DNA of 64,000 bases from Patescibacteria group bacterium. Lineage in GTDB: Bacteria > Patescibacteriota > Patescibacteriia > JACRDY01. The notes under the pieces are model-generated. The model had not been told where the DNA came from. It searched no databases and worked only from the letters and a program-made list of their open reading frames with translations. Numbering within the stretch: the first letter of the stretch is position 1; every line of letters starts with the position of its first letter. The translations under genes and the position numbers were made by a program. Shown piece by piece: positions 9,993 through 63,749 of this stretch. The DNA lies in assembly GCA_041653535.1 (NCBI GenBank), contig JBAZFH010000002.1, positions 173,011 through 237,010 of the forward strand, given 5' to 3'.

Positions 9993-10250
9993 ATGAAAGT
10001 CCGTGTTTATGGAGAAGATAAGGCAGGACTTGTCGCTGATACAACGGTGATTCAAATAACGTGTCCGCATTGCAACAGCGATCTGGACGTGACTTTTAGC
10101 GACATCAGTCGTTGTGCCGGTTTTCGTCACGATGTAGATGCTTGCGGAGTAAGGACTTGCTGCGGTGCCTGCAATCAGTATTTTCTCATTTCGCAAGACA
10201 AGATGCCAAAAAATTGGCTAAAGGCGTTATTTCCGCCTGATGAGTTTTGA
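9993..10250 (+). CDS. Small Cys-rich protein (CPHC...C...CCGAC), function unknown.
   Basis: 85 aa. The start is 1 nt after the previous stop, so it is probably translationally coupled. An intrinsic terminator follows. Confidence 0.55.
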   Translation: MKVRVYGEDKAGLVADTTVIQITCPHCNSDLDVTFSDISRCAGFRHDVDACGVRTCCGACNQYFLISQDKMPKNWLKALFPPDEF

Positions 10251-10258
10251 AAAAAAAC

Positions 10259-10287
10259 AAAACCCCGTACCAAGTATGGGGTTTTTA
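10259..10287 (+). terminator. Intrinsic terminator.
   Basis: AAAACCCCGTA-CCAAG-TATGGGGTTTTT, a 7-bp stem with one G-U pair and a U-tract. Confidence 0.65.
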
Positions 10288-40249: not shown

Positions 40250-41266
40250 ATGTTCAGAGGCAAAAGAATACTAGTTACCGGGGGGACGGGATCGTTTGGC
40301 CATCAAATAGTTAATGATTTGATTCCTTACGAACCGGCCGAGATACGGGTTTTTTCCCGTGATGAAAAAAAGCAGCACGACATGCGTTTGGAATATCCGG
40401 ATGTTAAGTTTTTAACTTTTGTTATTGGTGATGTTCGCGATGCTGCGTCAGTACGATCAGCAATGAGAGGAATTGATATAGTTTTCAACGCCGCGGCATT
40501 AAAACAAGTTCCTTCCTGCGAATATCATGTTATCCAGGCAGTCAAAACCAACATTCTTGGTCCGCACAACGTTATCGAAGCGGCTTTGCAAGAAGACGTT
40601 GAGAAGGTGATAACTATTTCAACAGACAAAGCGTGCGAACCGATCAACGCCATGGGTATCAGTAAGGCAATGCAAGAGCGTTTGTTTGTTTCGGCCAACC
40701 TTGAAAAAGGTAACAAAAGAACAGTCTTTGCCGGCGTTCGTTATGGCAACGTGCTTGGTTCTCGCGGGTCAGTAGTGCCGCTATTTAAACAGCTTGCCGA
40801 AGAAGGCAAGGATTTACCGATTACCGACAGACTAATGACGCGTTTTATTATTACTTTACCTCAATCAATAGAGCTAGTTTTTTATGCAGCCGAGCATGCT
40901 GTCGGTGGTGAAATGTTTGTCAAAAAAATGCCAGCGCACACCATCACTGATTTGGCAGAAATTATCTTAGCCCGACACGGCAAAAATGAAAATCAAAAGG
41001 TAGTAGAAAAAGGAATCCGTCCCGGAGAAAAGATTCATGAGAGTCTGGTTTCTCCTTCCGAGTCACTGCACTGTATTGATCAGGGCGACTACTTTGTTAT
41101 TTTGCCGCAGATATCACTACCCGATGTAGAAGCTAAATACGGTTCGTTAATAAACAATCTCCCTGGTCCGACGCAGCAAAAATCTTTCCGCTATTCTTCG
41201 GAAAATACTCAACGTCTAAGCAAAGAAGATCTTGGGGAGCTACTAAAAAATGAAGGCTGGATCTAA
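40250..41266 (+). CDS. UDP-GlcNAc inverting 4,6-dehydratase family (PseB/FlaA1/CapE/WbjB-like).
   Basis: ILVTGGTGSFGHQIV, TDKACEPINAMGISK, VRYGNVLGSRGSVVPLFK, GIRPGEKIHE and a C-terminal YSSEN. Near-collinear with the PseB/CapE family. Confidence 0.85.
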   Translation: MFRGKRILVTGGTGSFGHQIVNDLIPYEPAEIRVFSRDEKKQHDMRLEYPDVKFLTFVIGDVRDAASVRSAMRGIDIVFNAAALKQVPSCEYHVIQAVKTNILGPHNVIEAALQEDVEKVITISTDKACEPINAMGISKAMQERLFVSANLEKGNKRTVFAGVRYGNVLGSRGSVVPLFKQLAEEGKDLPITDRLMTRFIITLPQSIELVFYAAEHAVGGEMFVKKMPAHTITDLAEIILARHGKNENQKVVEKGIRPGEKIHESLVSPSESLHCIDQGDYFVILPQISLPDVEAKYGSLINNLPGPTQQKSFRYSSENTQRLSKEDLGELLKNEGWI

Positions 41267-42173
41267 AATTTTAATTACTGGCGGTAGCGGCATGCTGGGT
41301 AGCAGCCTATTTTTTACGTGGCAGGAAAAAGCTGACATTTATCTTTTGTCGCGTGAGTTGCCGGCTTACGATCAGGAAAAAAGTGTTAGCGTTGATCTAA
41401 CCGACGGGCAAAAAACTCTTGAAGCGGTAAAGAAAATAAGTCCAGATATTATCGTTCACACCGCGGCAATGACTAACGTTGACTATTGTGAAGATAACCC
41501 AGAGCAAGCGCGTGCGGTTAATGTAATGGCAACAGAAAATATTGCTTTAGCTACCAAAGAGATTGGCGCCAAACTGGTTTATATTTCTACTGATTTTGTC
41601 TTTGACGGCAAAAAAGGAAATTATACCGAGGAAGATGTGCCAAATCCTCTCAGCGTCTATGCTAAAACAAAATGGGAAGGCGAAGAAGTGGTGAGAAATA
41701 TTTTAACTGACTGGTTGATTATTCGCACTACCATCTATGGCTGGAATATTTTACAAAAAAGTTGTTTTCCCGAAGCGGTAATCAATGCTTTGAGTCAAGG
41801 TAAAGAGTTTACCCCGTTTGAAGATCAATACAGCACGCCGGTTTTTACCGAAACTCTGGCCGATGTTTTATGGCAGTTGCTGGAGAAAAATAAAATCGGA
41901 ATTTATAATGTTACTTGCAATGAAATTTTGTCTAAATATCAGTGGGCGCAGATGGTTGCTGATGAGTTCGGTCTGGATCAAAGCAGCTTACGACCGGTCC
42001 CTTTTGCGTTAGCCATACTGCGAGCGCCACGTCCGGTTAACGCTTCTTTAAATAACGCCAAGTTGCTTAGTGAACTAGGTTGGGATAAAATTAGTCTGAA
42101 AGACGATATAAAGAAAATGCATCTAAGGCAAAATTTTTATGGTCAATATAAAAAATCTAGAGAAAAAAGTTGA
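41250..42173 (+). CDS. RmlD-like NDP-4-keto-6-deoxyhexose 4-reductase (dTDP-4-dehydrorhamnose reductase family).
   Basis: ILITGGSGMLGSS, HTAAMTNVDYCE and YISTDFVFDG...YAKTKWEGE (RmlD substrate-binding domain). Overlaps the upstream gene by 17 nt. Confidence 0.8.
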   Translation: MKAGSKILITGGSGMLGSSLFFTWQEKADIYLLSRELPAYDQEKSVSVDLTDGQKTLEAVKKISPDIIVHTAAMTNVDYCEDNPEQARAVNVMATENIALATKEIGAKLVYISTDFVFDGKKGNYTEEDVPNPLSVYAKTKWEGEEVVRNILTDWLIIRTTIYGWNILQKSCFPEAVINALSQGKEFTPFEDQYSTPVFTETLADVLWQLLEKNKIGIYNVTCNEILSKYQWAQMVADEFGLDQSSLRPVPFALAILRAPRPVNASLNNAKLLSELGWDKISLKDDIKKMHLRQNFYGQYKKSREKS

Positions 42174-42525
42174 TGATCGCGGCTGGTTAGCTGAAATAAT
42201 CCGCGCCGAAGATGTCGAGCCAAAAGAATTCGGTCAGTTTTTGATTACTACCGCCAAACCAGGGATTACCAAAGGCGGTCATTACCACAAAAGAAAAAAT
42301 GAATGGTATTGTGTCATTCGCGGTAAAGCCGAGCTTTATCTAAAAAATTTGACTAGCGGGCAGGAGGAAAACGTAATTTTGGACGAAAATAATTTGCAGT
42401 TAGTAAAAATCGAGCCAAACGTTTTTCATAGCATTAAAAATATCGGTGAAGACGAAATGTATCTCCTTGCTTATACTACGGAGGTGTTCAACTCCGAAGA
42501 TCCGGATACCTTTACTCTAAGTTAA
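42139..42525 (+). CDS. Cupin-fold sugar epimerase/isomerase (RmlC / CapF-C-terminal / WxcM-like).
   Basis: 128 aa. DDRGWLAEI...GGHYHKRKNEWYCVIRGKAE...FHSIKN double-stranded beta-helix motifs. Overlaps the upstream gene. Confidence 0.65.
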   Translation: MVNIKNLEKKVDDRGWLAEIIRAEDVEPKEFGQFLITTAKPGITKGGHYHKRKNEWYCVIRGKAELYLKNLTSGQEENVILDENNLQLVKIEPNVFHSIKNIGEDEMYLLAYTTEVFNSEDPDTFTLS

Positions 42526-54458: not shown

Positions 54459-57400
54459 ATGATTGTCTTGGAAAAAATAAAAAAGTATTGGCCGATTTTA
54501 TTTATTTTAGTTTTGGGTTCTTTGCCCTTGGTTTGGTTTAGAGATGGTCTGCTTATCGCCGGCGGCGACAATGATTGGTATCTTAACCCGGTAAAGCTTT
54601 TTCACGATGCCCTTTACACCTGGTCAGGGCTAAAAAGCGCTGGAGAAATAAATTTTTTGGTTTGTCATATTTTTCCATTGCCTGCTTTTTGGGCTTTATT
54701 AAAACTGGTCGGTTTGAGTTTGGTTAATATCCAGAGGCTATGGACTATTTTGATTTTCGTTACCCCGGCTCTATCGATTTATTATTTGGTTATCAGATAT
54801 TTTGGCGCAGACAAAAAGGAGGTTAAATATCAGCTCGTCGGACTGCTAGCCGCTATCCTCTATAGCTTCAATATGTTTTTGATTAATAGTCCGCTCAACT
54901 CCGTTGCTTCTCCGGTGCTGGCAATCATGCCGCTGATGCTTTGGTTCTTTATTTCGGCTTTGGAGCAAGAAAAATTTTCTTTCAAATATCCGGCGGCTAT
55001 TAGCGTGTTATCTATTTTCCTCTTTTTTTCGAACACCAATCTGGCGGAAGTTAGTATTATACCACTGGTCCTCGGTCTTTATTTGTTATTTTTTGTTGCT
55101 TTCAACTTTAAATTTTTTAAAATAGTTCATGCTTTCAAAGTAGTCGTGGCTAGTGTAGTCGCATATCTGGCGGTTAACTCCTGGTGGTTGCTGATAATAT
55201 CTTTTTCTTTTGTTGAAGCTGCTTCCAAAGCAGGAGAAATTGTAAAAAGTATCAGTTTTGTCGAACGTAGTTATTTGTTTGAAGTATTTAGATTGATGGG
55301 TTTTTGGGCTTTTAGGATCAAAACCGGCGCGGGGCTTTCAAACGTGCCGTACAGTGATTTGTATTATCAACCTTTACTTATAATCTTGACCTACCTAATT
55401 CCACTAGTGGTATTTTTCGCTTTAATTTTTCGACCGCGGGACAAGAAGATTATTTTTTTCTCCCTGATTTTTTTGCTGGGAATATTTTTAGCCAAGGGGA
55501 CCAATGAACCGTTTGGTGTCGTCTATGGTTTTTTGTTTGAAAAGATCCCTGGATTTTGGGTTTTTCGCAACCCTTACTCCAAATTTATGCCTTTGACGAT
55601 ATTTGGTTTTTCGATTTTGTATGGTTTATCTGCCGCCGATATATATTATGGAGCAAAAAAGTGGTTTGTAACCAAGATAAAAAACCGGCAAAGGGCGGTA
55701 GCGATGGCTTTGATTATCCTTGTGTTTTTGGGGTTACTGCCAATTGCGGCTGCCTGGCCAATACTGACCGGTAAATTTTTGTCCGATGCTTCCTGGTATG
55801 GTACACCTGAAAAATCAATGCATGTCCAAGTGCCGGACTACTGGCAGCAAGCAAACAAATGGTTTACAGAAAACGACCCTGAAGGTAGAGTTTTGCTTTT
55901 ACCCAAAGCAGGATATGGGCATTGTTATAAATGGTTGTCGGGAATATGCACCGGAGGATATGTTGCCAACTATCTTATACCAAATCCGATTATCAGCTAT
56001 CCCAATCTAAAAATAGATTCTCCGTACGATAACACGATTGATAGTCTTTTTTCTTACATTAAACCGCAGACCAGGGTTGATCTTGCCGAATTACTGGGTG
56101 TTTTTAATATTAAATATATCTTGCAGCAAGACGATTTACTGTGGCAAAGGGCGGGCACCGATTCTTATTCGCCGGAACAGATAAAAAATATTTTAGCGGA
56201 GCAGCCGGGGATAGAGTTTATAAAAAATTTTGGCAAGTTGAATCTTTATCAGATTAAAGGTGATTATTACGTGCAGAGAATTTTTGCCCCACGTAAAGTT
56301 AGTTATACGTCTAGCAAAGATCCCCTGGAGACAAGTCAGGCGGTTTTACTCAACAAAAAAAACGTGACGGAAGAGTCGATGTTCGAAATAAAAGATGGTT
56401 TGGATAGTTCAGACAAGGATTTGATAGCAACAAAAAGACTAGCCGATACTAACGGTTATAGTCTAGATATACCAGCGCAGGCAGAATATGATTTTTATTT
56501 GATTCAAAAACCAATCTCGCCGCAAGTTGTGGTCTGTGCCGGATGCCCGTCGGGTTTTGGTATTAGTCTTGGCGATGAATATTCGGGGAAACAATTATTT
56601 TTTACTAAAGCAATAAGTGGTGGAGTTTACTTTGATAATGACAAAAAGATTTCTTTGTCCTGGCGTCGGTCGATAAAGATTTATCCTTTAGACGTTAATG
56701 ATGTGGGTATTGATAGTCCGATAGTCGGTTGGAGTTTTATCCAAAATGTTGGGGCGGTAGATCTTTACGGGTCGCAGCTGTCGGAAAATTTTCCCGAAGA
56801 CTACAAAACGTCATCAGAAGCAAAAATATTTTTTGCCGGTTTCCGGGATGGACAGCAACTGGGCGAAGACTGGGGGGTCGAAATTTTTCCCGATTCTTTT
56901 GAAATAGGGACTATGAAGACCAGAAGGGTGGTGGTTAGTGTGCCAGCGGGAACTAGACCCGGGGAGGGCTATCGATTCGTTTATCTCAAAAAACCAAGCA
57001 TGCTTTCCGATTTAGATTTTGGGAGCAATGTCGGCACAAGCAGTGTTTTATCTGTCGGTTCTGCAAGTCTCGCTGCCGGCAATCATCGTGTTTTATTGAC
57101 CGGACTGACCAGCGAGGATTTGGATAAAATGACTTTTGTTGCCAAGAAAAAGGTGGTGGAAGGCGGAGTGGTGGTGCCAAAAATAACATTCAAAAAAATC
57201 AACCCGACAAAGTATAAAGTGATGGTTAGTGGAGCTGTAACCGATTTTTCTTTGGTTTTTTCTGAAAACTTTAATACTTTTTGGAGGGTTTATGTCTTTC
57301 CTCAAGTATTTTTAAGCCAAAGGGAACTTTCGGGCAAGCCTTTTTCGCCAGTGTCATCAAGCGGTCCGGTAGACGCTGATTTTGTAAGCGAGGAATATGG

Positions 57401-57677
57401 CGGATCCACGCAGAATAATAATCTTACGTCGCCTTTTTACAAGACATATTTTAGGTCTTCGCTTGGCGAGCACCAGCATTTTTTGGCCAATGGTTATGCT
57501 AATGGTTGGTGGATTAAGCGACCGGACTGCCTTGAACAAGGAGATAAGTGTCAGAATTTCGAAATCATTATTGAATTTTGGCCACAAAGGATTTATTATC
57601 TCGGTGGCTTGATTTCCGGTCTGTCATTTTGTTTGATATTGTTTTATTTGATCAAAAAAATACGGTCGAGGGAATAA
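54459..57677 (+). CDS. Very large polytopic membrane protein (putative GT-C-fold glycosyltransferase), paralogue of 35901-38342.
   Basis: 1072 aa. About 13 N-terminal TM helices, an extracytoplasmic domain of about 600 aa and a terminal EFWPQR-TM anchor. The conserved blocks are listed for the paralogue. Confidence 0.55.
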   Translation: MIVLEKIKKYWPILFILVLGSLPLVWFRDGLLIAGGDNDWYLNPVKLFHDALYTWSGLKSAGEINFLVCHIFPLPAFWALLKLVGLSLVNIQRLWTILIFVTPALSIYYLVIRYFGADKKEVKYQLVGLLAAILYSFNMFLINSPLNSVASPVLAIMPLMLWFFISALEQEKFSFKYPAAISVLSIFLFFSNTNLAEVSIIPLVLGLYLLFFVAFNFKFFKIVHAFKVVVASVVAYLAVNSWWLLIISFSFVEAASKAGEIVKSISFVERSYLFEVFRLMGFWAFRIKTGAGLSNVPYSDLYYQPLLIILTYLIPLVVFFALIFRPRDKKIIFFSLIFLLGIFLAKGTNEPFGVVYGFLFEKIPGFWVFRNPYSKFMPLTIFGFSILYGLSAADIYYGAKKWFVTKIKNRQRAVAMALIILVFLGLLPIAAAWPILTGKFLSDASWYGTPEKSMHVQVPDYWQQANKWFTENDPEGRVLLLPKAGYGHCYKWLSGICTGGYVANYLIPNPIISYPNLKIDSPYDNTIDSLFSYIKPQTRVDLAELLGVFNIKYILQQDDLLWQRAGTDSYSPEQIKNILAEQPGIEFIKNFGKLNLYQIKGDYYVQRIFAPRKVSYTSSKDPLETSQAVLLNKKNVTEESMFEIKDGLDSSDKDLIATKRLADTNGYSLDIPAQAEYDFYLIQKPISPQVVVCAGCPSGFGISLGDEYSGKQLFFTKAISGGVYFDNDKKISLSWRRSIKIYPLDVNDVGIDSPIVGWSFIQNVGAVDLYGSQLSENFPEDYKTSSEAKIFFAGFRDGQQLGEDWGVEIFPDSFEIGTMKTRRVVVSVPAGTRPGEGYRFVYLKKPSMLSDLDFGSNVGTSSVLSVGSASLAAGNHRVLLTGLTSEDLDKMTFVAKKKVVEGGVVVPKITFKKINPTKYKVMVSGAVTDFSLVFSENFNTFWRVYVFPQVFLSQRELSGKPFSPVSSSGPVDADFVSEEYGGSTQNNNLTSPFYKTYFRSSLGEHQHFLANGYANGWWIKRPDCLEQGDKCQNFEIIIEFWPQRIYYLGGLISGLSFCLILFYLIKKIRSRE

Positions 57678-57682
57678 AAATT

Positions 57683-59539
57683 ATGAAAAATAAAATTATT
57701 AAAATCATAAAAGCCATGTTTAGTTGGTGGTCGGCGGGAGAGCGGATAATATTTTTAGAGTACGCCGCACTGTCTATTTTTATATTATTGCCGATATTTA
57801 AACCCGGATATATTTTTGCTCTGGACTTTACCGCCGCTCCGCATTTTGATTTTCCATCCACAGTTTCTTTCGAGTACCCGTGGTTAGTTTTTTTGTGGTT
57901 ATTAAATCTGTTTATTCCGGCGGCAGTGATACAAAAGATAATTTGCTTCGCCATTCTGTTTTTAGCCGGCATCGGTGCACATTATTTTGTCGGAAAGTTT
58001 TCGTCGACTAAATGGTCAAAATATTTTGCCGGTTTGTTGTTTATCTTTAATCCGTTAGTTTATTCTCGTTTAGCTTATGGTCAGTTTCGTTTTTTGTTAG
58101 GGTACGCTCTATTGCCGTGGTTATTTTTAGCTGGCTTGCGGTTTTTGAAACAACCATTGATTAAAAAGACGTTTTATTTAGCGCTACTCCTAACGGTTTG
58201 CGGAGCAGTCAGTCTCCATATTTTGTTTATATTTTCTTTTGTTTTTATCGCGACGTGGCTGACTCGTTTTTTTCAATCAATTTATAACAGAAATTATTTG
58301 TTTGAATTTTTAAAACAAACCGTTTTTTTATTGCTATTATTTTTGTTTTTAAATAGTTATTGGTTATTACCGGTTTTTGTCAACCATTCTAGCGTCAACA
58401 ATGCTCTGTCATCTTTTGACCAGCGGGACGTCTTTGGTTTTCAGACCAATGCCGACTCTCGCTTTGGGGTTTTTGTTAACACAGCAGCGATGTATGGTTT
58501 TTGGGGTGACAGAGAGGGTCGTTATTTTTCTCAAAAAACAGTAGTCTCTTATTGGTTTGTTTTGTTTCTAGTGTTATTATTTTTTGTTTTTTGGGGCGTT
58601 GGTTTGTTGTTTTGGAAATTAATCAAGAAATATCATCAGTTCAGATTATTGACAAACCCGTCTGTTGCTCAGCTAAAAGATGAACGATTATCGGAAGATA
58701 TTTGGCTTGCCCTCCCAATATTTTTTTGTGCCGTTGTCGCTTTGTTTATGGCTGTCGGCGTGGCGCATCCATTTTCTGCGCTGATTTCTCAGTGGTTATA
58801 CCAAAACTTTTCTTTTTATAAAGGTTTTAGGGAGCCGCAAAAATGGGTAGTGGTCTTGATTTTAGCTTATACCTATTTTGCTTCATTTGGTGTTGATGAT
58901 TTGGTAAAGAAAGCCGCCCGCGGTCTTGAGTATTTGGCCAGGAGAGCCAATCAACTAAAAACAAAGAAACCGATTTTATTTTTATTGTCAGTTTTTAGAA
59001 AAGTTTTGCCCGTGATATTTCTGATCGTTCCTTTGTTCTACAGTCCGATATTATTGCTAGGGCTTGGTCGCCAGATGTGCGTTGGTTCTTATCCGGCCAG
59101 TTGGTACGAGTCTAACGAGCTGTTAAATTCTGATCAGGAAAATTTTCAGACGCTTTTTCTGCCATGGCACATGTATCTCAATCTGTCTTTTGCTTGTAAC
59201 AAGGTAGTAACAAATCCTGCCGCTGCCTTTTTTGATAAACCATTTATAGTCGGAGACAATATTGAATTTGGAAATATTTATAACCAAAATAATCGGGCTG
59301 ATTCAAAATATGTCGAAGAAAACATATTGCAAAACAAAGGGCGGTTTACTCAAAAAGACGGCGGGGGTTTAGGAGAAGTGTTGAATACGATAAACGTTAA
59401 GTATGTTGTTTGGGCAAAAGAGTCGGATTTTTTTAATTATGATTTTGTTAAATTGGCGCCGGACTTAGAATTGGTTTATGATAGAGACAGGATTCAAATT
59501 TATAAAAATTTAAAATGGCAAGATGAAAAAAATAGATAA
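57683..59539 (+). CDS. Large polytopic membrane protein related to the N-terminal TM region of the two giant paralogues.
   Basis: 618 aa from ATG 57683; the ORF-track 57578 start is an extension overlapping the upstream gene. Multiple TM helices with the FALDFTAAPHFDFP loop motif. Lacks the EFWPQR C-terminal anchor. Confidence 0.5.
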   Translation: MKNKIIKIIKAMFSWWSAGERIIFLEYAALSIFILLPIFKPGYIFALDFTAAPHFDFPSTVSFEYPWLVFLWLLNLFIPAAVIQKIICFAILFLAGIGAHYFVGKFSSTKWSKYFAGLLFIFNPLVYSRLAYGQFRFLLGYALLPWLFLAGLRFLKQPLIKKTFYLALLLTVCGAVSLHILFIFSFVFIATWLTRFFQSIYNRNYLFEFLKQTVFLLLLFLFLNSYWLLPVFVNHSSVNNALSSFDQRDVFGFQTNADSRFGVFVNTAAMYGFWGDREGRYFSQKTVVSYWFVLFLVLLFFVFWGVGLLFWKLIKKYHQFRLLTNPSVAQLKDERLSEDIWLALPIFFCAVVALFMAVGVAHPFSALISQWLYQNFSFYKGFREPQKWVVVLILAYTYFASFGVDDLVKKAARGLEYLARRANQLKTKKPILFLLSVFRKVLPVIFLIVPLFYSPILLLGLGRQMCVGSYPASWYESNELLNSDQENFQTLFLPWHMYLNLSFACNKVVTNPAAAFFDKPFIVGDNIEFGNIYNQNNRADSKYVEENILQNKGRFTQKDGGGLGEVLNTINVKYVVWAKESDFFNYDFVKLAPDLELVYDRDRIQIYKNLKWQDEKNR

Positions 59540-60350
59540 AGAAAAAATAATTTTTGGCGTCAAGCTGATAATTTTGCTGTTAGTTGTGATTTTTAGTTTG
59601 TATAAAGACATTACCATTGTTGGTTTGTTGGTTCTGGCTTTTTCGGCATATGTTATTTTGTGGCAACAAGAGATCGCTACTAGTTTTGTAGCTGGGATTT
59701 TGTTACTGATTGTCTCACAGGTTATAACCGTATTTCGTTCAGAGGTCAGTGCGCGGTCATTGGCTGGTTATGGCTTGGTATTAATTTTAGTATCTATTTT
59801 TACTTGGTTTTTTGTTTACTTCAAAGATAAGCTTAGATTTATTCTGAGAAGATTTATTTTTAGTAAGACAGAACCATTAGTTGCGGAAGGGATTGGTAAT
59901 TATAAAAAAGCAGTGGCGAGGTTGAAAGATTCTAATAAAGGGACAAATATGTCTTTTACCAAACGAATACAGCAGCGGTGGTCGTTGATAATAATGCTGC
60001 TTTTGAGTATTTGGAAGGGTAGCCGATTTTTTGTAGTCAAAATCGCCGCCATGATTTTGTTGTTTCTGATTATACTGGTTATGACAAGTTGGTCGATTCT
60101 AAATACTTTTATTTTATTGGTGATGTTTATAGGAATTTTATTCAACATTGATGCCCGACCGGTTTTTCTATTAGGTATAATTTTGTTAATAGGGATACCG
60201 ATATTTTTGATTTTGGGTAAAGAGGGGGTAAGCGCTGTTTTAGCAATTTACGCCTATCACGCCTTAATTATTGGTTTTATATGGGACTTGGCAGGTGCAA
60301 TAAGGATCAAATATCAGGGCGCGCGACCGATCTGTGCCAGGTTTGAGTAA
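59523..60350 (+). CDS. Polytopic membrane protein, hypothetical.
   Basis: 275 aa with at least 6 TM helices. Overlaps the upstream gene by 17 nt. No motif recognised. Confidence 0.5.
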   Translation: MKKIDKEKIIFGVKLIILLLVVIFSLYKDITIVGLLVLAFSAYVILWQQEIATSFVAGILLLIVSQVITVFRSEVSARSLAGYGLVLILVSIFTWFFVYFKDKLRFILRRFIFSKTEPLVAEGIGNYKKAVARLKDSNKGTNMSFTKRIQQRWSLIIMLLLSIWKGSRFFVVKIAAMILLFLIILVMTSWSILNTFILLVMFIGILFNIDARPVFLLGIILLIGIPIFLILGKEGVSAVLAIYAYHALIIGFIWDLAGAIRIKYQGARPICARFE

Positions 60351-60378
60351 TTGTGGATAACTGGCTTTTATTGAATTG

Positions 60379-60407
60379 TTGGCTTTTTCTATTTATTTTG
60401 GTATAAT
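60379..60407 (+). promoter_or_regulatory. Strong sigma-70-like promoter for the surface-protein gene.
   Basis: TTGGCT (60379-60384), 17-nt spacer, TATAAT (60402-60407), about 90 nt upstream of the ATG at 60498. Confidence 0.55.
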
Positions 60408-60497
60408 AATAACCAGTAAAAATATCTCTAATTTTAAACAAGTAGTTGGTTTTAAAATATTTAACTTAATATAAAGAAAAAAATAAAAAACCTTATT

Positions 60498-61487
60498 ATG
60501 GGTCAATTATTCAAAAATTTATCTCGCAACGAAAATTTCGTTGTAAAAGGGCTTTTAATAGCAGCTTTGCTAGTTCTAGCCGCGTCTATTTCTTCGACTG
60601 TTTATTCACAAATACAAGGATATGTTGGTTATGGTTATGGCTATAATGCCTGGGGCTATGGCTATGGTTATGGATCTTCTCTTCCGTCAGCTGTTAGCGA
60701 TCTTGCTTTGAGCACGACTACTAGTAGCGGCGAATTAAGAGCCAGTTGGACTGCGGTAACCACTTGTATGGATGAAACAAGTCTTGATAATTTTGCTTAT
60801 TACAAGGTTTACTGGGCTACTTCGTCAACAGACGCCAATAGCACGTCCCGTTTAAGTGCGATCGTTGCTACTCAGGGTAGTGGTACGATTAATGCTACTA
60901 TCAGTGGCTTAACAGCAGGAACTACTTATTATATGGCTATTTATACAGTTGATTCCATGGGAAACTGGAGCAATATTTCTAACGTTTCTTCTTTGGCAGC
61001 TGGTGCGACTAGCACTGCTGGTCAAAATGGCGGTGGCGGCGGTGGTGGATCAAGTACCACTACTAGTCCGACTACCGGTGAGTCAGTGCCTGTGGTTGTG
61101 GTTGCTCCTACCCCTGCTTTGGGAGTTGTCACCGGATTTACCACGCCAACTGTTACTGGGGTAAAGAGTGAATCTTTGAGAACTGGTAATTTCGCTTATG
61201 GCTACGCTCGCGTTGCTTCCCTGGCAGTGGAGCAGGGTCTGGCTAAATACCTAGCTACGAACCTGGAAAATAAATTCGGCAGAGCTACTTTCAACAGTTT
61301 GTTCCGCAAAGCCACAAAGACTTCTGGGCAATGGTGGTACGCTTATGTAAATGCTTATACTTATGGCGGCTACACATTAAAGGAAGTCCAACAAGGCGTG
61401 AAGTTTGGCGGTAAAACCGTTCATCCGACCATACCGGCTTCTGCTTGGAGAAATAGCGCGGATTATAAGGCTTACATCAATAAATAG
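60498..61487 (+). CDS. Secreted or cell-surface protein with an N-terminal hydrophobic anchor/signal, Gly-Tyr repeats, an FN3-like domain and a Ser/Thr/Gly-rich linker.
   Basis: VVKGLLIAALLVLAASISSTVYS; GYVGYGYGYNAWGYGYGYG; SWTAV...YYKVYWATSS...TYYMAIYTVD (FN3-like); GGGGGGGSSTTTSPTTGESVPVVVVAPTPA. Confidence 0.7.
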   Translation: MGQLFKNLSRNENFVVKGLLIAALLVLAASISSTVYSQIQGYVGYGYGYNAWGYGYGYGSSLPSAVSDLALSTTTSSGELRASWTAVTTCMDETSLDNFAYYKVYWATSSTDANSTSRLSAIVATQGSGTINATISGLTAGTTYYMAIYTVDSMGNWSNISNVSSLAAGATSTAGQNGGGGGGGSSTTTSPTTGESVPVVVVAPTPALGVVTGFTTPTVTGVKSESLRTGNFAYGYARVASLAVEQGLAKYLATNLENKFGRATFNSLFRKATKTSGQWWYAYVNAYTYGGYTLKEVQQGVKFGGKTVHPTIPASAWRNSADYKAYINK

Positions 61488-61506
61488 AATCTAGATAGAT
61501 AGAATA

Positions 61507-61540
61507 AAAAGACCTCGGGAAATCCGGGGTCTTTTGTATT
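61507..61540 (+). terminator. Intrinsic terminator.
   Basis: AAAAGACCTCGG-GAAAT-CCGGGGTCTTTT, a 12-bp stem with one G-U pair, followed by GTATTTT. Confidence 0.8.
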
Positions 61541-61578
61541 TTAGAAATATTTAATCTTTAGAGAGTTAAAATAGCGGC

Positions 61579-62904
61579 ATGGAAGCTAGGCGTTTTAGAT
61601 TTTATTTACTGGTTATTTTATTAATAATAGCGATTGTTCGTTATTATTTATGGTTGCCGCAAAATGAGCCACGACAAGTGATTTATTACAATGGTCAAAA
61701 GCTTGATTTTAAAGCATTAGTGGTGGACGACCCCAAATACAACATTGACTCCGGTAAATTGGTCGTACAGCCAGAAAATTTGAAAGGAAAGGTTTTGGTT
61801 ACAACAGAACTTTACCCTAGATATTATTATGGTGATTTATTACAGATTAGCTGTCGTCTTGTCGCGCCAAAAGCCAAGGAGGGCTTTGCTTACGATAAAT
61901 ATTTGGCTAAGTCCGATATTTATTCTATTTGTTATCAGCCCAAAATAAACATCGTTGCCCGTGGTCAGGGCAGCAGCATCAAGCAGGCAATTTTTGCTTT
62001 TAAACAAAAGGCAATAAGGGTAATTGATCGGCAATTGCCGTCGCCGACTTCGGCGCTACTGACCGCTATTATTTTTGGTGATACTGGTAAAATACCCGCG
62101 GCGCTGGCTGATAATTTTTCTCGAACCGGAACAACGCATATTATGGCCGTATCAGGAATGAATATTACTTTATTGGTGGCGATTATGCTTAATTTTTTGG
62201 TGGCGGTCGGTCTGCGGCGTAAAACCGCTTATTATTTTATAGTTGTATTTTTATCAACTTTTGTTTTTTTGATTGGCGCGCCGGCTTCAGCGGTACGGGC
62301 GTTGATAATGGGTATACTGTGGCTGACCGCGGCGCAAATCGGGAGAATTAACAACTCCGGTTGGGCACTTACTTTAGCCGGCGCGGTGATGCTGGCGCTT
62401 AACCCGATGTTATTATTTTACGACGCTGGTTTTCAATTATCTTTTTTATCAATGTGGGGGCTGGGTAAATTTGGTGATCTGGTAAATAGATTTTTGGAAA
62501 AAGCAAAAATACCATCGGCTTTCGCTATCCGCGAGTCTCTTGCCTCTACTATCGCCGCGCAGATTGGCACTTTACCTCTCATGGTTTATAGTTTTCACAG
62601 TATTTCTATTATTTCACTGTTAGTAAACGTTTTAGTTTTGCCAGTAATACCAGTGGTGATGATTACCGGGTTGATTTTAGTTACTCTAGGCTTGGCGATT
62701 AAGGTATCGTTAATATTTTTATCATGGTTCGTATATTTATTTTTGTACTACATGGTCGGCATAATTAATTTTTTTGGAAAAGTGGATTTTGCGGCTTTAA
62801 ACATCAATATTGGCTTGTGGTCGGTCGTGGTTTACTATTTGTTGTTATTAGTAGCGCTTTATTGGAAGAAAGTAATTTTATGCTACCAAAGATTAAAAAA
62901 ATAA
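61579..62904 (+). CDS. comEC: ComEC/Rec2 DNA-uptake channel, N-terminal part (DUF4131 plus competence domain).
   Basis: Periplasmic OB-like N-terminus, then TGTTHIMAVSGMNITLL and multiple TM helices. Confidence 0.8.
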   Translation: MEARRFRFYLLVILLIIAIVRYYLWLPQNEPRQVIYYNGQKLDFKALVVDDPKYNIDSGKLVVQPENLKGKVLVTTELYPRYYYGDLLQISCRLVAPKAKEGFAYDKYLAKSDIYSICYQPKINIVARGQGSSIKQAIFAFKQKAIRVIDRQLPSPTSALLTAIIFGDTGKIPAALADNFSRTGTTHIMAVSGMNITLLVAIMLNFLVAVGLRRKTAYYFIVVFLSTFVFLIGAPASAVRALIMGILWLTAAQIGRINNSGWALTLAGAVMLALNPMLLFYDAGFQLSFLSMWGLGKFGDLVNRFLEKAKIPSAFAIRESLASTIAAQIGTLPLMVYSFHSISIISLLVNVLVLPVIPVVMITGLILVTLGLAIKVSLIFLSWFVYLFLYYMVGIINFFGKVDFAALNINIGLWSVVVYYLLLLVALYWKKVILCYQRLKK

Positions 62905-63749
62905 TTTTGTGGTTAGTGTTGCTCGAGATGGTTTTAGTTGTACTATTTTTTTTATCTTTTCGTTTTGGTTGGTCAAGTAAAAAAATAGAAGTGGTTTTTT
63001 GTGACGTCGGTCAAGGCGACGCAATGCTAATAAAAACTTTTACCGGTCAAGACGTTCTTATTGACGGTGGACCAGGGGATGCGGTTTTGAGCTGCCTTGG
63101 TAATCATTTGCCGTTTTATGACCGTAGTCTGGATTTGGTAATACTCACACATCCGCATCAAGACCATCTGGGTGGGCTAGTCGCAGTTTTGGATAAATAT
63201 AGCGTTAATAGTATTATTGCTAGCGGTCTTGATATTGCCGTAGGTAATGCAACGGGTAAGGAACTAGGGCAAAAGATAAAGGAGAAAAATATTAAAACCA
63301 CTAGTGCTGTCGCTGGTCAGGTGGTTGATTTTGGACAAGGAATAAAGATGGAAATATTATTTCCCTTAAGTAAAAAAAATGACTCCAAAAAAGATTTGAA
63401 TGATATTTCTATAGTTAGCCGTCTGGTTTATAAAGATAATGAATTTTTATTTATGGGCGACGCCGGGATTGAGACGGAAGAAGTGATTTTGTTAAGCAAT
63501 AAAAATGTATCAAGTGACGTTTTAAAAGTTGGTCATCATGGCAGTTTTTATTCCAGTAGTGAAAATTTTTTGCAGGCAGTTTTACCAAAAGTAGCAGTTA
63601 TTTCCGTCGGTGAAAACAACAAGTTTGGTCATCCGTCTAATTTAGTCGTCAAGAGATTGGAAAGACGCGGGGTCAGGATTTTTCGTACCGACCAAGACGG
63701 CGATATTGTATTGATAAGCGATGGGGTAAAAATTTATGACAAAAATTAA
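62880..63749 (+). CDS. comEC: ComEC C-terminal metallo-beta-lactamase domain, encoded as a separate overlapping ORF.
   Basis: An N-terminal TM, then VLIDGGPG...LVILTHPHQDHLGGL...VGHHGS (MBL fold). It overlaps the upstream ORF by 25 nt in another frame, across an A8 tract at 62895-62902. Confidence 0.7.
   Translation: MLPKIKKIILWLVLLEMVLVVLFFLSFRFGWSSKKIEVVFCDVGQGDAMLIKTFTGQDVLIDGGPGDAVLSCLGNHLPFYDRSLDLVILTHPHQDHLGGLVAVLDKYSVNSIIASGLDIAVGNATGKELGQKIKEKNIKTTSAVAGQVVDFGQGIKMEILFPLSKKNDSKKDLNDISIVSRLVYKDNEFLFMGDAGIETEEVILLSNKNVSSDVLKVGHHGSFYSSSENFLQAVLPKVAVISVGENNKFGHPSNLVVKRLERRGVRIFRTDQDGDIVLISDGVKIYDKN

What the first reader, a model, noticed from the sequence alone, without database searches (positions are those of the whole stretch)
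60379..61487. A strongly promoted Ser/Thr-rich surface protein with an FN3-like segment directly downstream of the glycan array is a candidate glycosylation target
The gene immediately after the array has a near-consensus promoter, TTGGCT-17-TATAAT. It encodes a protein with an N-terminal anchor or signal, an unusual (GY)n segment (GYVGYGYGYNAWGYGYGYG), an FN3-like beta-sandwich region, a GGGGGGGSSTTTSPTTGESVPVVVVAPTP linker and several N-x-S/T sequons (NSTS, NATI, NWSN, NISN, NVSS). Its position and composition suggest it is the protein scaffold, S-layer-like or pilus-like, that carries the glycan. Otherwise it is an abundant surface adhesin.
Basis: partly seen in the sequence, partly recalled or inferred. 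Interest (0 to 1): 0.55.

Follow-up and report, generated by a model that had tools for sequence, protein, structure and literature searches.

The report
Patescibacterial surface protein, unannotated C-terminal domain
This gene encodes a small exported cell-surface protein of an ultra-small (Patescibacteria) bacterium whose most informative part is a conserved, basic, helical C-terminal domain found in no domain library or solved structure, which probably ties many secreted proteins of these bacteria to the cell envelope; whether the protein carries the neighbouring glycan is untested and only weakly suggested.

Summary
The described features are all present. The ORF is 60498-61487 (329 aa). 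It has a TTGGCT-17-TATAAT promoter with an extended -10, a strong terminator, an N-terminal signal or anchor, a (GY)n stretch, an FN3 domain (Pfam 28 bits, cutoff 25) and a poly-G/S/T/P linker. The N-x-S/T sequons (6 observed, 4.1 expected) and the promoter motif are no more than chance would give.

I read the protein as an independently transcribed envelope protein attached through this CTD, with the FN3 and GY tail displayed.

The glycosylation-target idea is not excluded. There is an S-layer glycoprotein precedent, and a close relative lacks the array and keeps only a remnant of the gene. But no oligosaccharyltransferase was found. The full-length orthologue (L005) and most family members sit among housekeeping genes.

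The parts
60379..60407 (+). Sigma-70-type promoter: -35 TTGGCT (60379-60384), 17-nt spacer ending in TG, -10 TATAAT (60402-60407).
   Evidence: 10/12 matches, TG present, best in 59000-62500. By motif statistics it is not rarer than chance. Its position in the 147-bp intergenic gap, and a comparable promoter upstream of the L005 orthologue, support it.
60408..60497 (+). Presumed A/T-rich 5' leader of about 85-90 nt, with no obvious Shine-Dalgarno sequence.
   Evidence: Sequence read. There is no Rfam family match anywhere in the window.
60498..61487 (+). Coding sequence, 329 aa plus stop. NCBI annotates it as a 'fibronectin type III domain-containing protein [Patescibacteria group bacterium]'.
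   Evidence: P0001, 100% identity, on a 323-kb contig.
60498..60608 (+). N-terminal signal peptide or signal anchor (aa 1-37): a K/R-containing n-region, the hydrophobic core GLLIAALLVLAA, and a possible cleavage site after VYS.
   Evidence: Kyte-Doolittle maximum of 1.9. AF2 gives a helix at aa 14-40. No lipobox, no LPXTG and no prepilin motif are seen in the sequence. Cleavage itself was not predicted with a dedicated tool.
60618..60674 (+). Gly-Tyr repeat segment GYVGYGYGYNAWGYGYGYG (aa 41-59), predicted disordered. It is encoded by two short hexanucleotide arrays.
   Evidence: pLDDT is below 50 for aa 32-60. A run of (GY) of 3 or more is unique to this protein among 212 family members checked. 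L005 has a degenerate counterpart, GTYGYYENNFGY.
60687..60998 (+). Acidic fibronectin type III domain (aa 64-167, pI 4.1). It carries 5 of the 6 N-x-S/T sequons.
   Evidence: Pfam PF00041 E = 2.5e-6, 28 bits, cutoff 25. Weak PDB fibronectin hits. Seven-strand sandwich in AF2. pI.
60999..61169 (+). Disordered linker (aa 168-224) containing G7, SSTTTSPTT and a V/P/T-rich stretch. The aa 168-228 stretch measured is about 33% S+T.
   Evidence: pLDDT about 25 for aa 171-212. Similar poly-G/S/T/P linkers precede the same C-terminal domain in L001, P0012 and L005.
61170..61484 (+). Conserved basic C-terminal domain (CTD, aa ~225-329, pI 9.9). It is a short beta-hairpin (FAYG..R) followed by six helices. 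Motifs: WWYAYVNAYTYGGY and GGKTVHPTIP...W..S.DYKAYINK-COOH.
   Evidence: The family HMM hits this ORF and nothing else in the window, E = 4e-34. The exhaustive search gave 171 representative clusters. AF2 pLDDT 88.8, pTM 0.82. No Pfam, NCBIfam, PDB-sequence or fold match.
61507..61545 (+). Intrinsic terminator: 13-bp stem (6 G-C pairs), 3-nt loop and a T-run. It separates the gene from comEC.

Best explanation
The gene encodes an independently transcribed, Sec-exported envelope protein of a Patescibacteria (CPR) bacterium. In order along the chain it has: an N-terminal signal peptide or anchor; a short disordered Gly-Tyr-rich tail; one acidic FN3 domain; a disordered poly-G/S/T/P linker of about 55 aa; and a basic, all-helical C-terminal domain (CTD) of about 100 aa.

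The CTD defines a previously unannotated family, apparently restricted to Patescibacteria, of secreted proteins with very different passenger domains.

My proposed mechanism has four steps. The protein is exported (inferred from the N-terminus). The basic, aromatic-rich CTD binds non-covalently to a conserved anionic envelope component, most likely peptidoglycan or a wall-linked polymer (inferred). The flexible linker spans the wall (inferred). The acidic FN3 and GY tail are exposed at the surface (inferred).

This small protein is essentially the bare 'FN3-linker-CTD' cassette that also ends giant surface proteins. Glycosylation of the linker, FN3 or tyrosines by the adjacent array is possible. 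It is neither required nor shown.
For: Architecture (shown):
- ORF, promoter and terminator; FN3.
- Disordered GY stretch and linker, and helical CTD.

CTD family (shown):
- 171 representative clusters at E <= 1e-3.
- 139 of 172 domain hits end within 5 aa of the C-terminus. About a dozen proteins carry two tandem copies, and a few have it N-terminal or internal.
- 66 loci in GTDB species genomes, essentially all Patescibacteria MAGs, with up to three loci in one genome.

Extracytoplasmic location (shown):
- 56 of 58 complete members have an N-terminal hydrophobic segment. Only 2 have internal TM-like segments.

Passengers are all extracellular module types (shown):
- FN3/Pur_ac_phosph_N, bacterial TSP3 repeats, GH5/GH39/GH113, trypsin-like peptidase and Big_5.
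- Giant Ig-repeat proteins of about 1,950 aa (L001, L003).
- Wall-related fusions: signal peptide-CTD-Peptidase_S11 DD-carboxypeptidase (P0154) and PG_binding_1-CTD (P0011).

Charge split typical of wall-binding modules (shown):
- CTD median pI is 9.5 (79% above 8.5) against a passenger median of 5.06.
- In this protein the values are 9.86 against 4.09.

Other support:
- The FN3-linker-CTD cassette is shared with L002, L003, L005, P0009 and P0012.
- The high conservation of the CTD across classes contrasts with the variable glycan array, which is absent in the near relative L068. This argues for a conserved ligand.
Against: - The AlphaFold database could not be searched.
- If the N-terminal helix is an uncleaved anchor, the topology could be reversed, with the CTD outermost.
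- The same distribution (C-terminal, varied passengers including glycoside hydrolases and dockerin proteins) would also fit a protein-protein docking module or a substrate- or host-binding module.
- Abundance and promoter strength are inferred from motif matches that are not statistically exceptional.
Confidence: 0.55

Rival explanations
1. One reading: the protein is the scaffold glycosylated by the product of the adjacent 38-kb glycan array. In this reading it is an S-layer-glycoprotein-like arrangement, with a monocistronic target gene next to its glycosylation cluster. This does not exclude the anchoring role of the CTD.
For: - The gene follows directly on the same strand as the array, with its own promoter and terminator. 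Geobacillus S-layer genes sit the same way beside slg clusters, and tyrosine O-glycosylation is known (PMC2943079).
- The linker is exported, disordered and S/T-rich, and there is a Tyr-rich tail.
- Three GT-C enzymes and a Wzx flippase act at the outer face of the membrane.
- In the close relative L067/L068 the array is missing and the gene is reduced to a 65-aa remnant at the same place.
Against: - No Wzy_C/PglL/WsaB-type or STT3 oligosaccharyltransferase, and no initiating phosphotransferase, was detected in the array.
- Sequons are not enriched.
- The orthologue L005 is flanked by Suf genes and an M23/LysM peptidase, with only one GT-C-like ORF about 8 kb away.
- L002 and the about 39 loci of the main family lie among housekeeping genes.
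- G/S/T/P linkers are a general feature in front of this CTD regardless of context.
- The joint loss in L068 is a single event and could be one deletion.
Confidence: 0.2
2. The CTD is a protein-protein docking module, working like a dockerin. It would plug diverse secreted proteins into a surface scaffold or S-layer protein rather than into a wall polymer.
For: - It is a C-terminal helical module on many different passengers, including glycoside hydrolases.
- It is often preceded by Ca-binding TSP3 repeats (20 of 55).
- It co-occurs with true dockerins in P0121.
- Giant Ig-repeat proteins carry it.
Against: - No conserved partner gene sits next to CTD genes; the neighbours are housekeeping genes.
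- The CTD itself has no Ca-binding motif.
- The strongly basic pI and the Tyr/Trp-rich conserved motifs fit polymer binding better.
- Fusions to a DD-carboxypeptidase and to PG_binding_1 point to the wall.
Confidence: 0.12
3. The CTD is a ligand-targeting module directed at the host cell or at a substrate glycan. The proteins would then be released or membrane-tethered adhesins and enzymes used in episymbiosis.
For: - Cultivated Patescibacteria are episymbionts, and FN3-rich surface proteins are proposed host-contact factors (PMC13059738; PMC11623550).
- Glycoside hydrolase passengers commonly carry substrate-binding modules.
- The window protein may keep an N-terminal anchor, which would put the CTD distal.
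Against: - The CTD is very conserved across distant lineages that must have different hosts.
- Most members have classical cleavable-looking signal peptides and no other retention device.
- The DD-carboxypeptidase fusion acts on the cell's own wall.
Confidence: 0.1
4. The CTD is a C-terminal secretion or sorting signal that is recognised and removed by a dedicated machinery, like T9SS CTDs, LPXTG or PEP-CTERM.
For: - 139 of 172 copies lie at the extreme C-terminus.
- Peptidase genes (HtrA-like in 13 loci, C39-like in 9 loci) are frequent neighbours of the main subfamily.
Against: - It is a confidently folded, soluble helical domain of about 100 aa with no TM segment.
- Tandem copies occur, and it is N-terminal or internal in P0154, P0107, P0114, P0150 and P0121.
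- Members already have Sec-type N-termini.
- There is no LPXTG motif (from the sequence).
Confidence: 0.03

Closest known systems
SLH (S-layer homology) domains of monoderm bacteria. They anchor S-layer proteins and exo-enzymes to pyruvylated secondary cell-wall polymer.
   Same: Both are terminal modules shared by many otherwise unrelated secreted proteins of one organism, including enzymes, giant surface proteins and repeats. Both occur in more than one copy. Both act by non-covalent attachment (inferred here). Some Patescibacteria (Absconditicoccaceae) do use SLH proteins (PMC13059738).
   Different: There is no sequence match to SLH (Pfam scans). The CTD is a single helical domain of about 100 aa rather than three 55-aa repeats. 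Neither fold search gave a significant match to any solved structure. The ligand is unknown.
Gram-positive wall-associated proteins with a Pro/Thr/Ser/Gly-rich wall-spanning region ahead of a C-terminal anchor (LPXTG sortase substrates).
   Same: The order is the same: passenger, then a low-complexity G/S/T/P linker, then a C-terminal attachment element. Both are exported by Sec.
   Different: There is no LPXTG motif, no C-terminal hydrophobic segment and no charged tail. The attachment element is a folded basic domain, so any attachment would be non-covalent (sequence).
S-layer glycoproteins and their slg clusters (Geobacillus SgsE, Paenibacillus SpaA; O-OTase WsaB/WsfB).
   Same: A monocistronic gene for an exported surface protein sits beside a large polysaccharide-type gene cluster. 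Ser, Thr and Tyr residues are available as acceptors (PMC2943079).
   Different: No Wzy_C O-OTase, ABC transporter or WbaP-like initiator was found. The protein is small and half disordered, and there is no evidence of lattice formation. The adjacency is not conserved in the orthologue L005.
Dockerin type I modules of cellulosomal enzymes.
   Same: Both are short helical C-terminal modules appended to diverse enzymes and structural proteins. Here the CTD is often preceded by Ca-binding TSP3 repeats.
   Different: The CTD has no F-hand Ca-binding loops and no Pfam Dockerin_1 hit. No cohesin-like partner is known. The domain is basic.
Peptidoglycan-binding modules (PG_binding_1, LysM, SPOR).
   Same: It associates with wall-active enzymes: a DD-carboxypeptidase fusion, and adjacency to PG_binding_1 in P0011. 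It is basic and aromatic-rich.
   Different: There is no sequence or fold similarity to these modules. Peptidoglycan binding is untested.

Membership tests
Fibronectin type III domain proteins (Pfam PF00041) | Profile match above the curated threshold, and a 7-strand beta-sandwich. | tested here: met
   28 bits against a cutoff of 25, aa 64-162. Seven strands at aa 65-167 in the AF2 model, pLDDT 65-81.
New Patescibacteria C-terminal domain family (defined here, alignment A1) | Match to the family profile, with motifs FAYG..R, VNAYxYGGY and GGKTVHP.IP...W..S.DY..YI at the C-terminus of a protein with a Sec-type N-terminus. | tested here: met
   E = 4e-34 to the A1 HMM, the only hit in the window. 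35-81% identity to relatives. The invariant Tyr and near-invariant R, E, W, H are present.
S-layer glycoprotein with an slg-type glycosylation locus | An O-oligosaccharyltransferase with a Wzy_C domain (WsaB/WsfB/PglL type) in or near the cluster. | tested here: not met
   Pfam and NCBIfam scans of the array ORFs found GT2, GT4, GT-C(AftD-like), Wzx, epimerases, rSAM enzymes and methyltransferases, but no Wzy_C. The 275-aa membrane protein at 59523-60350 is unassigned, so a very divergent enzyme is not excluded.
S-layer glycoprotein with an slg-type glycosylation locus | A target gene transcribed on its own, close to the cluster. | tested here: met
   The gene has its own promoter-like site and terminator, 147 bp after the last array gene. 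Transcription itself was not measured.
S-layer glycoprotein with an slg-type glycosylation locus | The protein carries the glycan and forms a lattice. | not testable with these tools
   This needs glycoproteomics or electron microscopy. The size (about 30 kDa mature, about half disordered) argues against a lattice former.
N-glycosylation substrate (PglB/AglB type) | An STT3-family oligosaccharyltransferase present and sequons over-represented. | tested here: not met
   No STT3 was found among the array ORFs scanned. Six sequons were observed against 4.1 expected, p = 0.2. One D-x-N-x-T site (D112-N114) exists, which chance can explain.
SLH-anchored surface proteins | One to three SLH repeats (PF00395). 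| tested here: not met
   No SLH hit in the window protein at E <= 0.1 or in 55 family members.
Sortase substrates (LPXTG) | An LPXTG motif followed by a hydrophobic segment and a basic tail at the C-terminus. | tested here: not met
   The sequence ends ...SADYKAYINK. It has no LPXTG motif, and the last 130 aa have no hydrophobic window.
Type IV pilins | A class III signal: G|F/M-T-L-x-E with Glu at +5, and a long hydrophobic N-terminal helix. | tested here: not met
   The N-terminus reads ...VVKG-LLIAALLVLAAS, with no Glu at +5 and no F/M-T-L.

The most novel reading that the evidence does not exclude
The CTD is the general cell-envelope anchor of a large part of the Patescibacteria (ABY1- and Parcubacteria-type lineages and some Saccharibacteria). 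It would be a new helical fold that does the job SLH, LysM or LPXTG do elsewhere. A single profile would then read out the displayed surface proteome of these episymbionts: giant S-layer-like proteins, FN3 arrays, glycosidases and wall enzymes. The strongly promoted 'bare cassette' protein in this window would be an abundant wall-associated component whose exposed Tyr/Ser/Thr-rich parts could carry the strain-variable glycan.
Probability: 0.35. Interest if true: 0.7.

Novelty: new variant of a known kind. Interest (0 to 1): 0.5.

Why it matters
Patescibacteria make up a large share of bacterial diversity and live attached to other cells, yet little is known about how their surface is built. 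A conserved module restricted to this group marks more than 170 clusters of secreted proteins. It has no counterpart in Pfam, NCBIfam or the PDB.

If it is the envelope anchor, it gives three things:
- a simple sequence handle to list surface-displayed proteins in any CPR genome;
- a candidate new fold for wall or polymer binding;
- a tag for surface display or affinity capture of uncultivated cells.

For the original question, the result tempers the glycoprotein idea. The position next to the glycan array is real and conserved in close relatives. The defining enzyme for protein glycosylation was not found, and the orthologue lies elsewhere.

Tried and rejected
- **Whole-protein word-indexed search.** Low-complexity words swamped it. 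It returned only the protein itself and two CTD relatives.
- **CTD-only and profile word-indexed searches.** They returned only short fragments. The exhaustive HMMER search was needed.
- **The search for related loci with the 70-sequence alignment.** It was repeated with 12 closer sequences.
- **Metagenome scan with the full protein.** It found no orthologue, only an unrelated FN3 protein without a CTD (L070).
- **afdb50 fold search.** The library was unavailable.
- **Second CTD gene beside RNase Y/YmdB, as in Komeilibacteria-like relatives.** None was found in the window or in the 5.5 kb upstream of the YmdB gene on the short contig recovered (L071).
- **Rfam scan of the leader and window.** Nothing was found.
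- **NCBIfam 'CPR-type pilus protein PamT'.** One member matched at E = 0.09, which I reject as noise.
- **Pilin, sortase-substrate, lipoprotein and SLH readings.** All are rejected from the sequence and Pfam.
- **The CTD binds the product of the adjacent array.** I consider this unlikely. The CTD is highly conserved across classes, whereas the array is absent even in a close relative.
Full report
**1. Observation**

The ORF 60498..61487 (+, 329 aa) is the first gene after the glycan genes and precedes comEC. Every quoted string is present:
- the (GY)n stretch at aa 41-59;
- the G7-SSTTTSPTT...VVVVAPTP linker at aa 178-206;
- N-x-S/T sites at N114, N132, N156, N159 and N162, plus N7.

Ser plus Thr make up 23.8% of the protein. 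A TTGGCT-17-TATAAT site with TG before the -10 lies at 60379-60407 and is the best match in the region. A 13-bp-stem, T-run terminator lies at 61507-61535. Together these frame a monocistronic unit.

Two supporting arguments are no better than chance.
- Sequons: 6 were observed against 4.1 +/- 1.7 in shuffles, p = 0.2.
- Promoter: matches of at least 10/12 number 27 in the window against 29 +/- 6 in shuffles. TG plus a perfect -10 occurs 2 times against 0.8 expected.

The promoter remains credible for two other reasons. It sits in a 147-bp intergenic gap. The orthologue in L005 has its own TTGACC-17-TATAAT site 62 nt before its start codon.

The upstream array (about 22.4-60.35 kb) is real. 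It encodes:
- GT2 and GT4 transferases and a Wzx flippase;
- several epimerases/dehydratases, including an FnlA/B/C-like set;
- three B12-binding and two SPASM radical SAM enzymes;
- at least eight methyltransferases;
- three AftD-like GT-C proteins.

**2. Anatomy of the protein**

NCBI's record calls it a 'fibronectin type III domain-containing protein' of a Patescibacteria-group MAG. The parts are as follows.
- **N-terminus.** It has a K/R n-region and a 12-residue hydrophobic core. AF2 models a helix at aa 14-40. It has no lipobox, prepilin motif or LPXTG.
- **FN3.** It passes Pfam's threshold at aa 64-162, 28 bits against 25. AF2 models a 7-strand sandwich.
- **GY stretch and linker.** Both are predicted disordered, with pLDDT below 50 at aa 32-60 and about 25 at aa 171-212.
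- **C-terminal domain.** The last ~100 aa fold confidently into a short hairpin plus six helices. With a 70-sequence alignment the model has pLDDT 88.8 and pTM 0.82.

**3. The C-terminal domain (CTD) is the key feature**

BLAST against the only two non-self hits showed that similarity lies in the C-terminus: WY..VNAYTYGGY...VKFGGKTVHPTIP.SAW.NS.DYK.YI.K.

An exhaustive HMMER search with aa 215-329 found 171 representative clusters at E <= 1e-3, 81 of them at E <= 1e-10. The host proteins are 60 to 1,567 aa long.

The position of the domain within these proteins:
- Of 172 domain hits, 139 end within 5 aa of the C-terminus.
- About a dozen proteins have two tandem copies.
- A few carry it just after the signal peptide or internally.

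Alignment A1 gives one invariant Tyr and near-invariant R, E, W, H and Y positions.

A scan of GTDB species genomes returned 66 loci.
- Named lineages are Uhr-, Komeili-, Kerfeld-, Veblen-, Kuenen- and Magasanikbacteria, Parcubacteria and some Saccharibacteria.
- 18 TPA assemblies titled 'uncultured Gammaproteobacteria' include a 0.93-Mb complete chromosome. Several share neighbour-gene clusters with the named Patescibacteria loci. I regard them as mislabelled.
- One Uhrbacteria genome has three loci.

No curated family or solved structure covers the domain:
- Pfam on the window protein and on 55 full-length members;
- NCBIfam on 70 CTDs;
- a PDB profile search, best E = 0.21;
- Foldseek against PDB, best E = 2.6;
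- Foldseek against BFVD, best E = 2.0.

The AlphaFold database could not be searched.

**4. What the family tells us**

Of 58 complete members in genome loci, 56 have an N-terminal hydrophobic segment. Only 2 have internal TM-like segments.

The passenger domains are all extracellular module types:
- Pur_ac_phosph_N/FN3 (36 and 33 of 55), bacterial TSP3 repeats (20), GH families (Glyco_hydro_cc, GH39, GH5, GH113), trypsin-like peptidase, metallophosphoesterase and Big_5;
- giant Ig-repeat proteins of about 1,950 aa with carboxypeptidase-regulatory-like domains (L001, L003, P0007);
- a beta-helix protein with PG_binding_1 just before the CTD (P0011), and a signal peptide-CTD-Peptidase_S11 DD-carboxypeptidase (P0154);
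- a multi-dockerin protein (P0121).

CTDs are basic and passengers are acidic. The median CTD pI is 9.5, with 79% above 8.5. The median passenger pI is 5.06. In this protein the values are 9.86 against 4.09.

Poly-G/S/T/P/A linkers precede the CTD in the closest subfamily. L001 reads GGGGGSSTTTD... followed by a CTD 73% identical to this one.

The window protein, L005 (42% identity over the full length, including a degenerate G/Y stretch), L002, P0009 and P0012 are small 'FN3-linker-CTD' proteins. L003 ends with the same cassette.

Taken together, this is the signature of a terminal envelope-attachment module, working like SLH or other non-covalent wall anchors. The N-terminal, internal and tandem copies argue against a cleaved C-terminal sorting signal.

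The CTD is strongly conserved across classes, while glycan loci vary (section 5). This suggests a conserved ligand such as peptidoglycan or a conserved wall polymer, rather than the product of the adjacent array. All ligand statements are inference.

**5. Link to the glycan array**

Evidence for a link:
- There is a documented precedent. S-layer structural genes that are glycosylation targets are transcribed monocistronically. In Geobacillus they lie close to the slg cluster. Tyr, Ser and Thr are acceptors, and the O-OTase carries a Wzy_C domain (PMC2943079).
- In the closest relatives (CTD 79-81% identical; L067, L068, L069) the gene lies immediately upstream of the same split comEC.
- In L068 it follows NTP-transferase, DUF6580 (64-69% identical to window 18970 and 21897) and a Wzx-like gene.
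- There the 38-kb array is absent and the gene is only a 65-aa 3' remnant without a signal peptide or FN3.
- The position at the array-comEC junction is therefore conserved, and the array and the intact gene are missing together. This is a single observation, and one deletion could explain it.

Evidence against a link:
- No Wzy_C/PglL, STT3 or WbaP/WecA-type enzyme was detected in the array. The 275-aa membrane protein at 59523-60350 remains unassigned.
- The full-length orthologue L005 sits between SufBD/SufS and an M23-LysM peptidase and LeuRS.
- L002 sits next to a TPR membrane protein and a Big_6 protein.
- The about 39-locus 3xFN3-TSP3-CTD group is flanked by TsaD, TsaE, HtrA, HU, YmdB, RNase Y and a C39-like peptidase.
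- No close full-length orthologue was found in JGI metagenome contigs.

**6. Mechanism proposed**

Shown:
- the gene boundaries;
- the FN3 domain;
- the disordered segments;
- a folded, basic, conserved CTD;
- the family distribution and domain architectures.

Inferred:
- Sec export;
- non-covalent attachment of the CTD to an anionic envelope component;
- a linker that spans the wall;
- display of the acidic FN3 and the GY-rich tail;
- high expression.

Rivals are a dockerin-like protein docking module, a host- or substrate-targeting module, and a sorting signal. Protein glycosylation by the array is a compatible add-on.

**7. Comparison and novelty**

The protein belongs to the FN3 superfamily (tested, met). 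It is not an SLH protein, a sortase substrate or a pilin. It lacks the defining OTase of an slg-type system (tested, not met).

It works most like SLH- or LPXTG-type surface display, but through a domain with no detectable relative in Pfam, NCBIfam or the PDB. I therefore rate it a new variant of a known kind.

The (GY)n tail is unique within the family and remains unexplained.

**8. Verdict**

- The main result is a previously unannotated envelope-associated C-terminal domain that appears restricted to Patescibacteria.
- Interest is 0.5.

Noticed in passing
window 22462-60350: The glycan array is unusually rich in tailoring enzymes. It has three B12-binding radical SAM proteins (24428, 34453, 45130), two SPASM radical SAM proteins (32769, 49243), at least eight SAM methyltransferases and three AftD-like GT-C proteins (35901, 54459, 57578). 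It also has a Wzx flippase and an FnlA/B/C-like set (40250-42525). No Wzy_C, STT3 or initiating phosphotransferase was seen. This suggests a heavily methylated or modified wall polysaccharide.
   Followed up: partly
window 61579-63749; L067 1110-4743; L069 413-2544: ComEC is split into two genes: DUF4131+Competence, and a metallo-beta-lactamase domain. The split is conserved in the closest relatives. In L067 a fructose-bisphosphate aldolase gene lies between the two halves.
   Followed up: partly
L068 3219-3416 and L067 481-678: A close relative keeps only a 65-aa 3' remnant of this gene (81% identical over the last 62 aa). The remnant lies between a Wzx-like gene and comEC, and the terminator region is retained. 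The 38-kb glycan array is absent there.
   Followed up: yes
L005 9134-9162 and 9224-10327: The only full-length orthologue found (367 aa, 42% identity) also has a near-consensus promoter, TTGACC-17-TATAAT. It also has a poly-Thr linker and a degenerate G/Y stretch, GTYGYYENNFGY. It lies between Suf genes and an M23-LysM peptidase.
   Followed up: yes
L007, L008, L010, L013-L048 (about 39 loci), match at about 10001-10270 in most: A widespread orthologous group of 430-500-aa proteins has three FN3/purple-acid-phosphatase-N-like domains, bacterial TSP3 Ca-binding repeats and the CTD. It is syntenic with TsaD/TsaE, an HtrA-like protease, HU, YmdB, RNase Y and a C39-like peptidase.
   Followed up: partly
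P0154, P0011, P0121, P0150 (proteins): Unusual CTD contexts were seen. These are signal peptide-CTD-DD-carboxypeptidase (Peptidase_S11), beta-helix-PG_binding_1-CTD, and five dockerin repeats with TSP3 and an internal CTD. There is also a 729-aa protein without a signal peptide and with an internal CTD, which looks phage-tail-like from its sequence (not tested).
   Followed up: partly
L001, L004-L006, L010, L020, L025-L027, L031, L035, L036, L042, L047, L053, L054, L058, L063: Eighteen TPA-assembled MAGs titled 'uncultured Gammaproteobacteria bacterium' carry this Patescibacteria-type domain. Several share neighbour-gene clusters with the named Patescibacteria loci. One is a complete 0.93-Mb chromosome (OZ246400.1). 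The organism names are probably wrong. One further locus (L049) is labelled Lysobacteraceae.
   Followed up: no
window 59523-60350: A 275-aa multi-pass membrane protein directly upstream of the finding has no Pfam or NCBIfam match. It is the only array-end gene that could hide a divergent ligase, polymerase or transferase.
   Followed up: partly
window 54459-57677 and 57578-59539: Two adjacent AftD-like GT-C ORFs overlap by 100 nt as listed. The second probably starts at a later codon than the TTG listed. It also gives a sub-threshold NCBIfam match to MmpA-family trehalose-lipid delivery proteins (113 bits, cutoff 210).
   Followed up: no
window 60626-60673: The GY repeats are encoded by two short hexanucleotide arrays, TGGTTA x3.2 and GGCTAT x3.3. 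These could change length by slippage.
   Followed up: no
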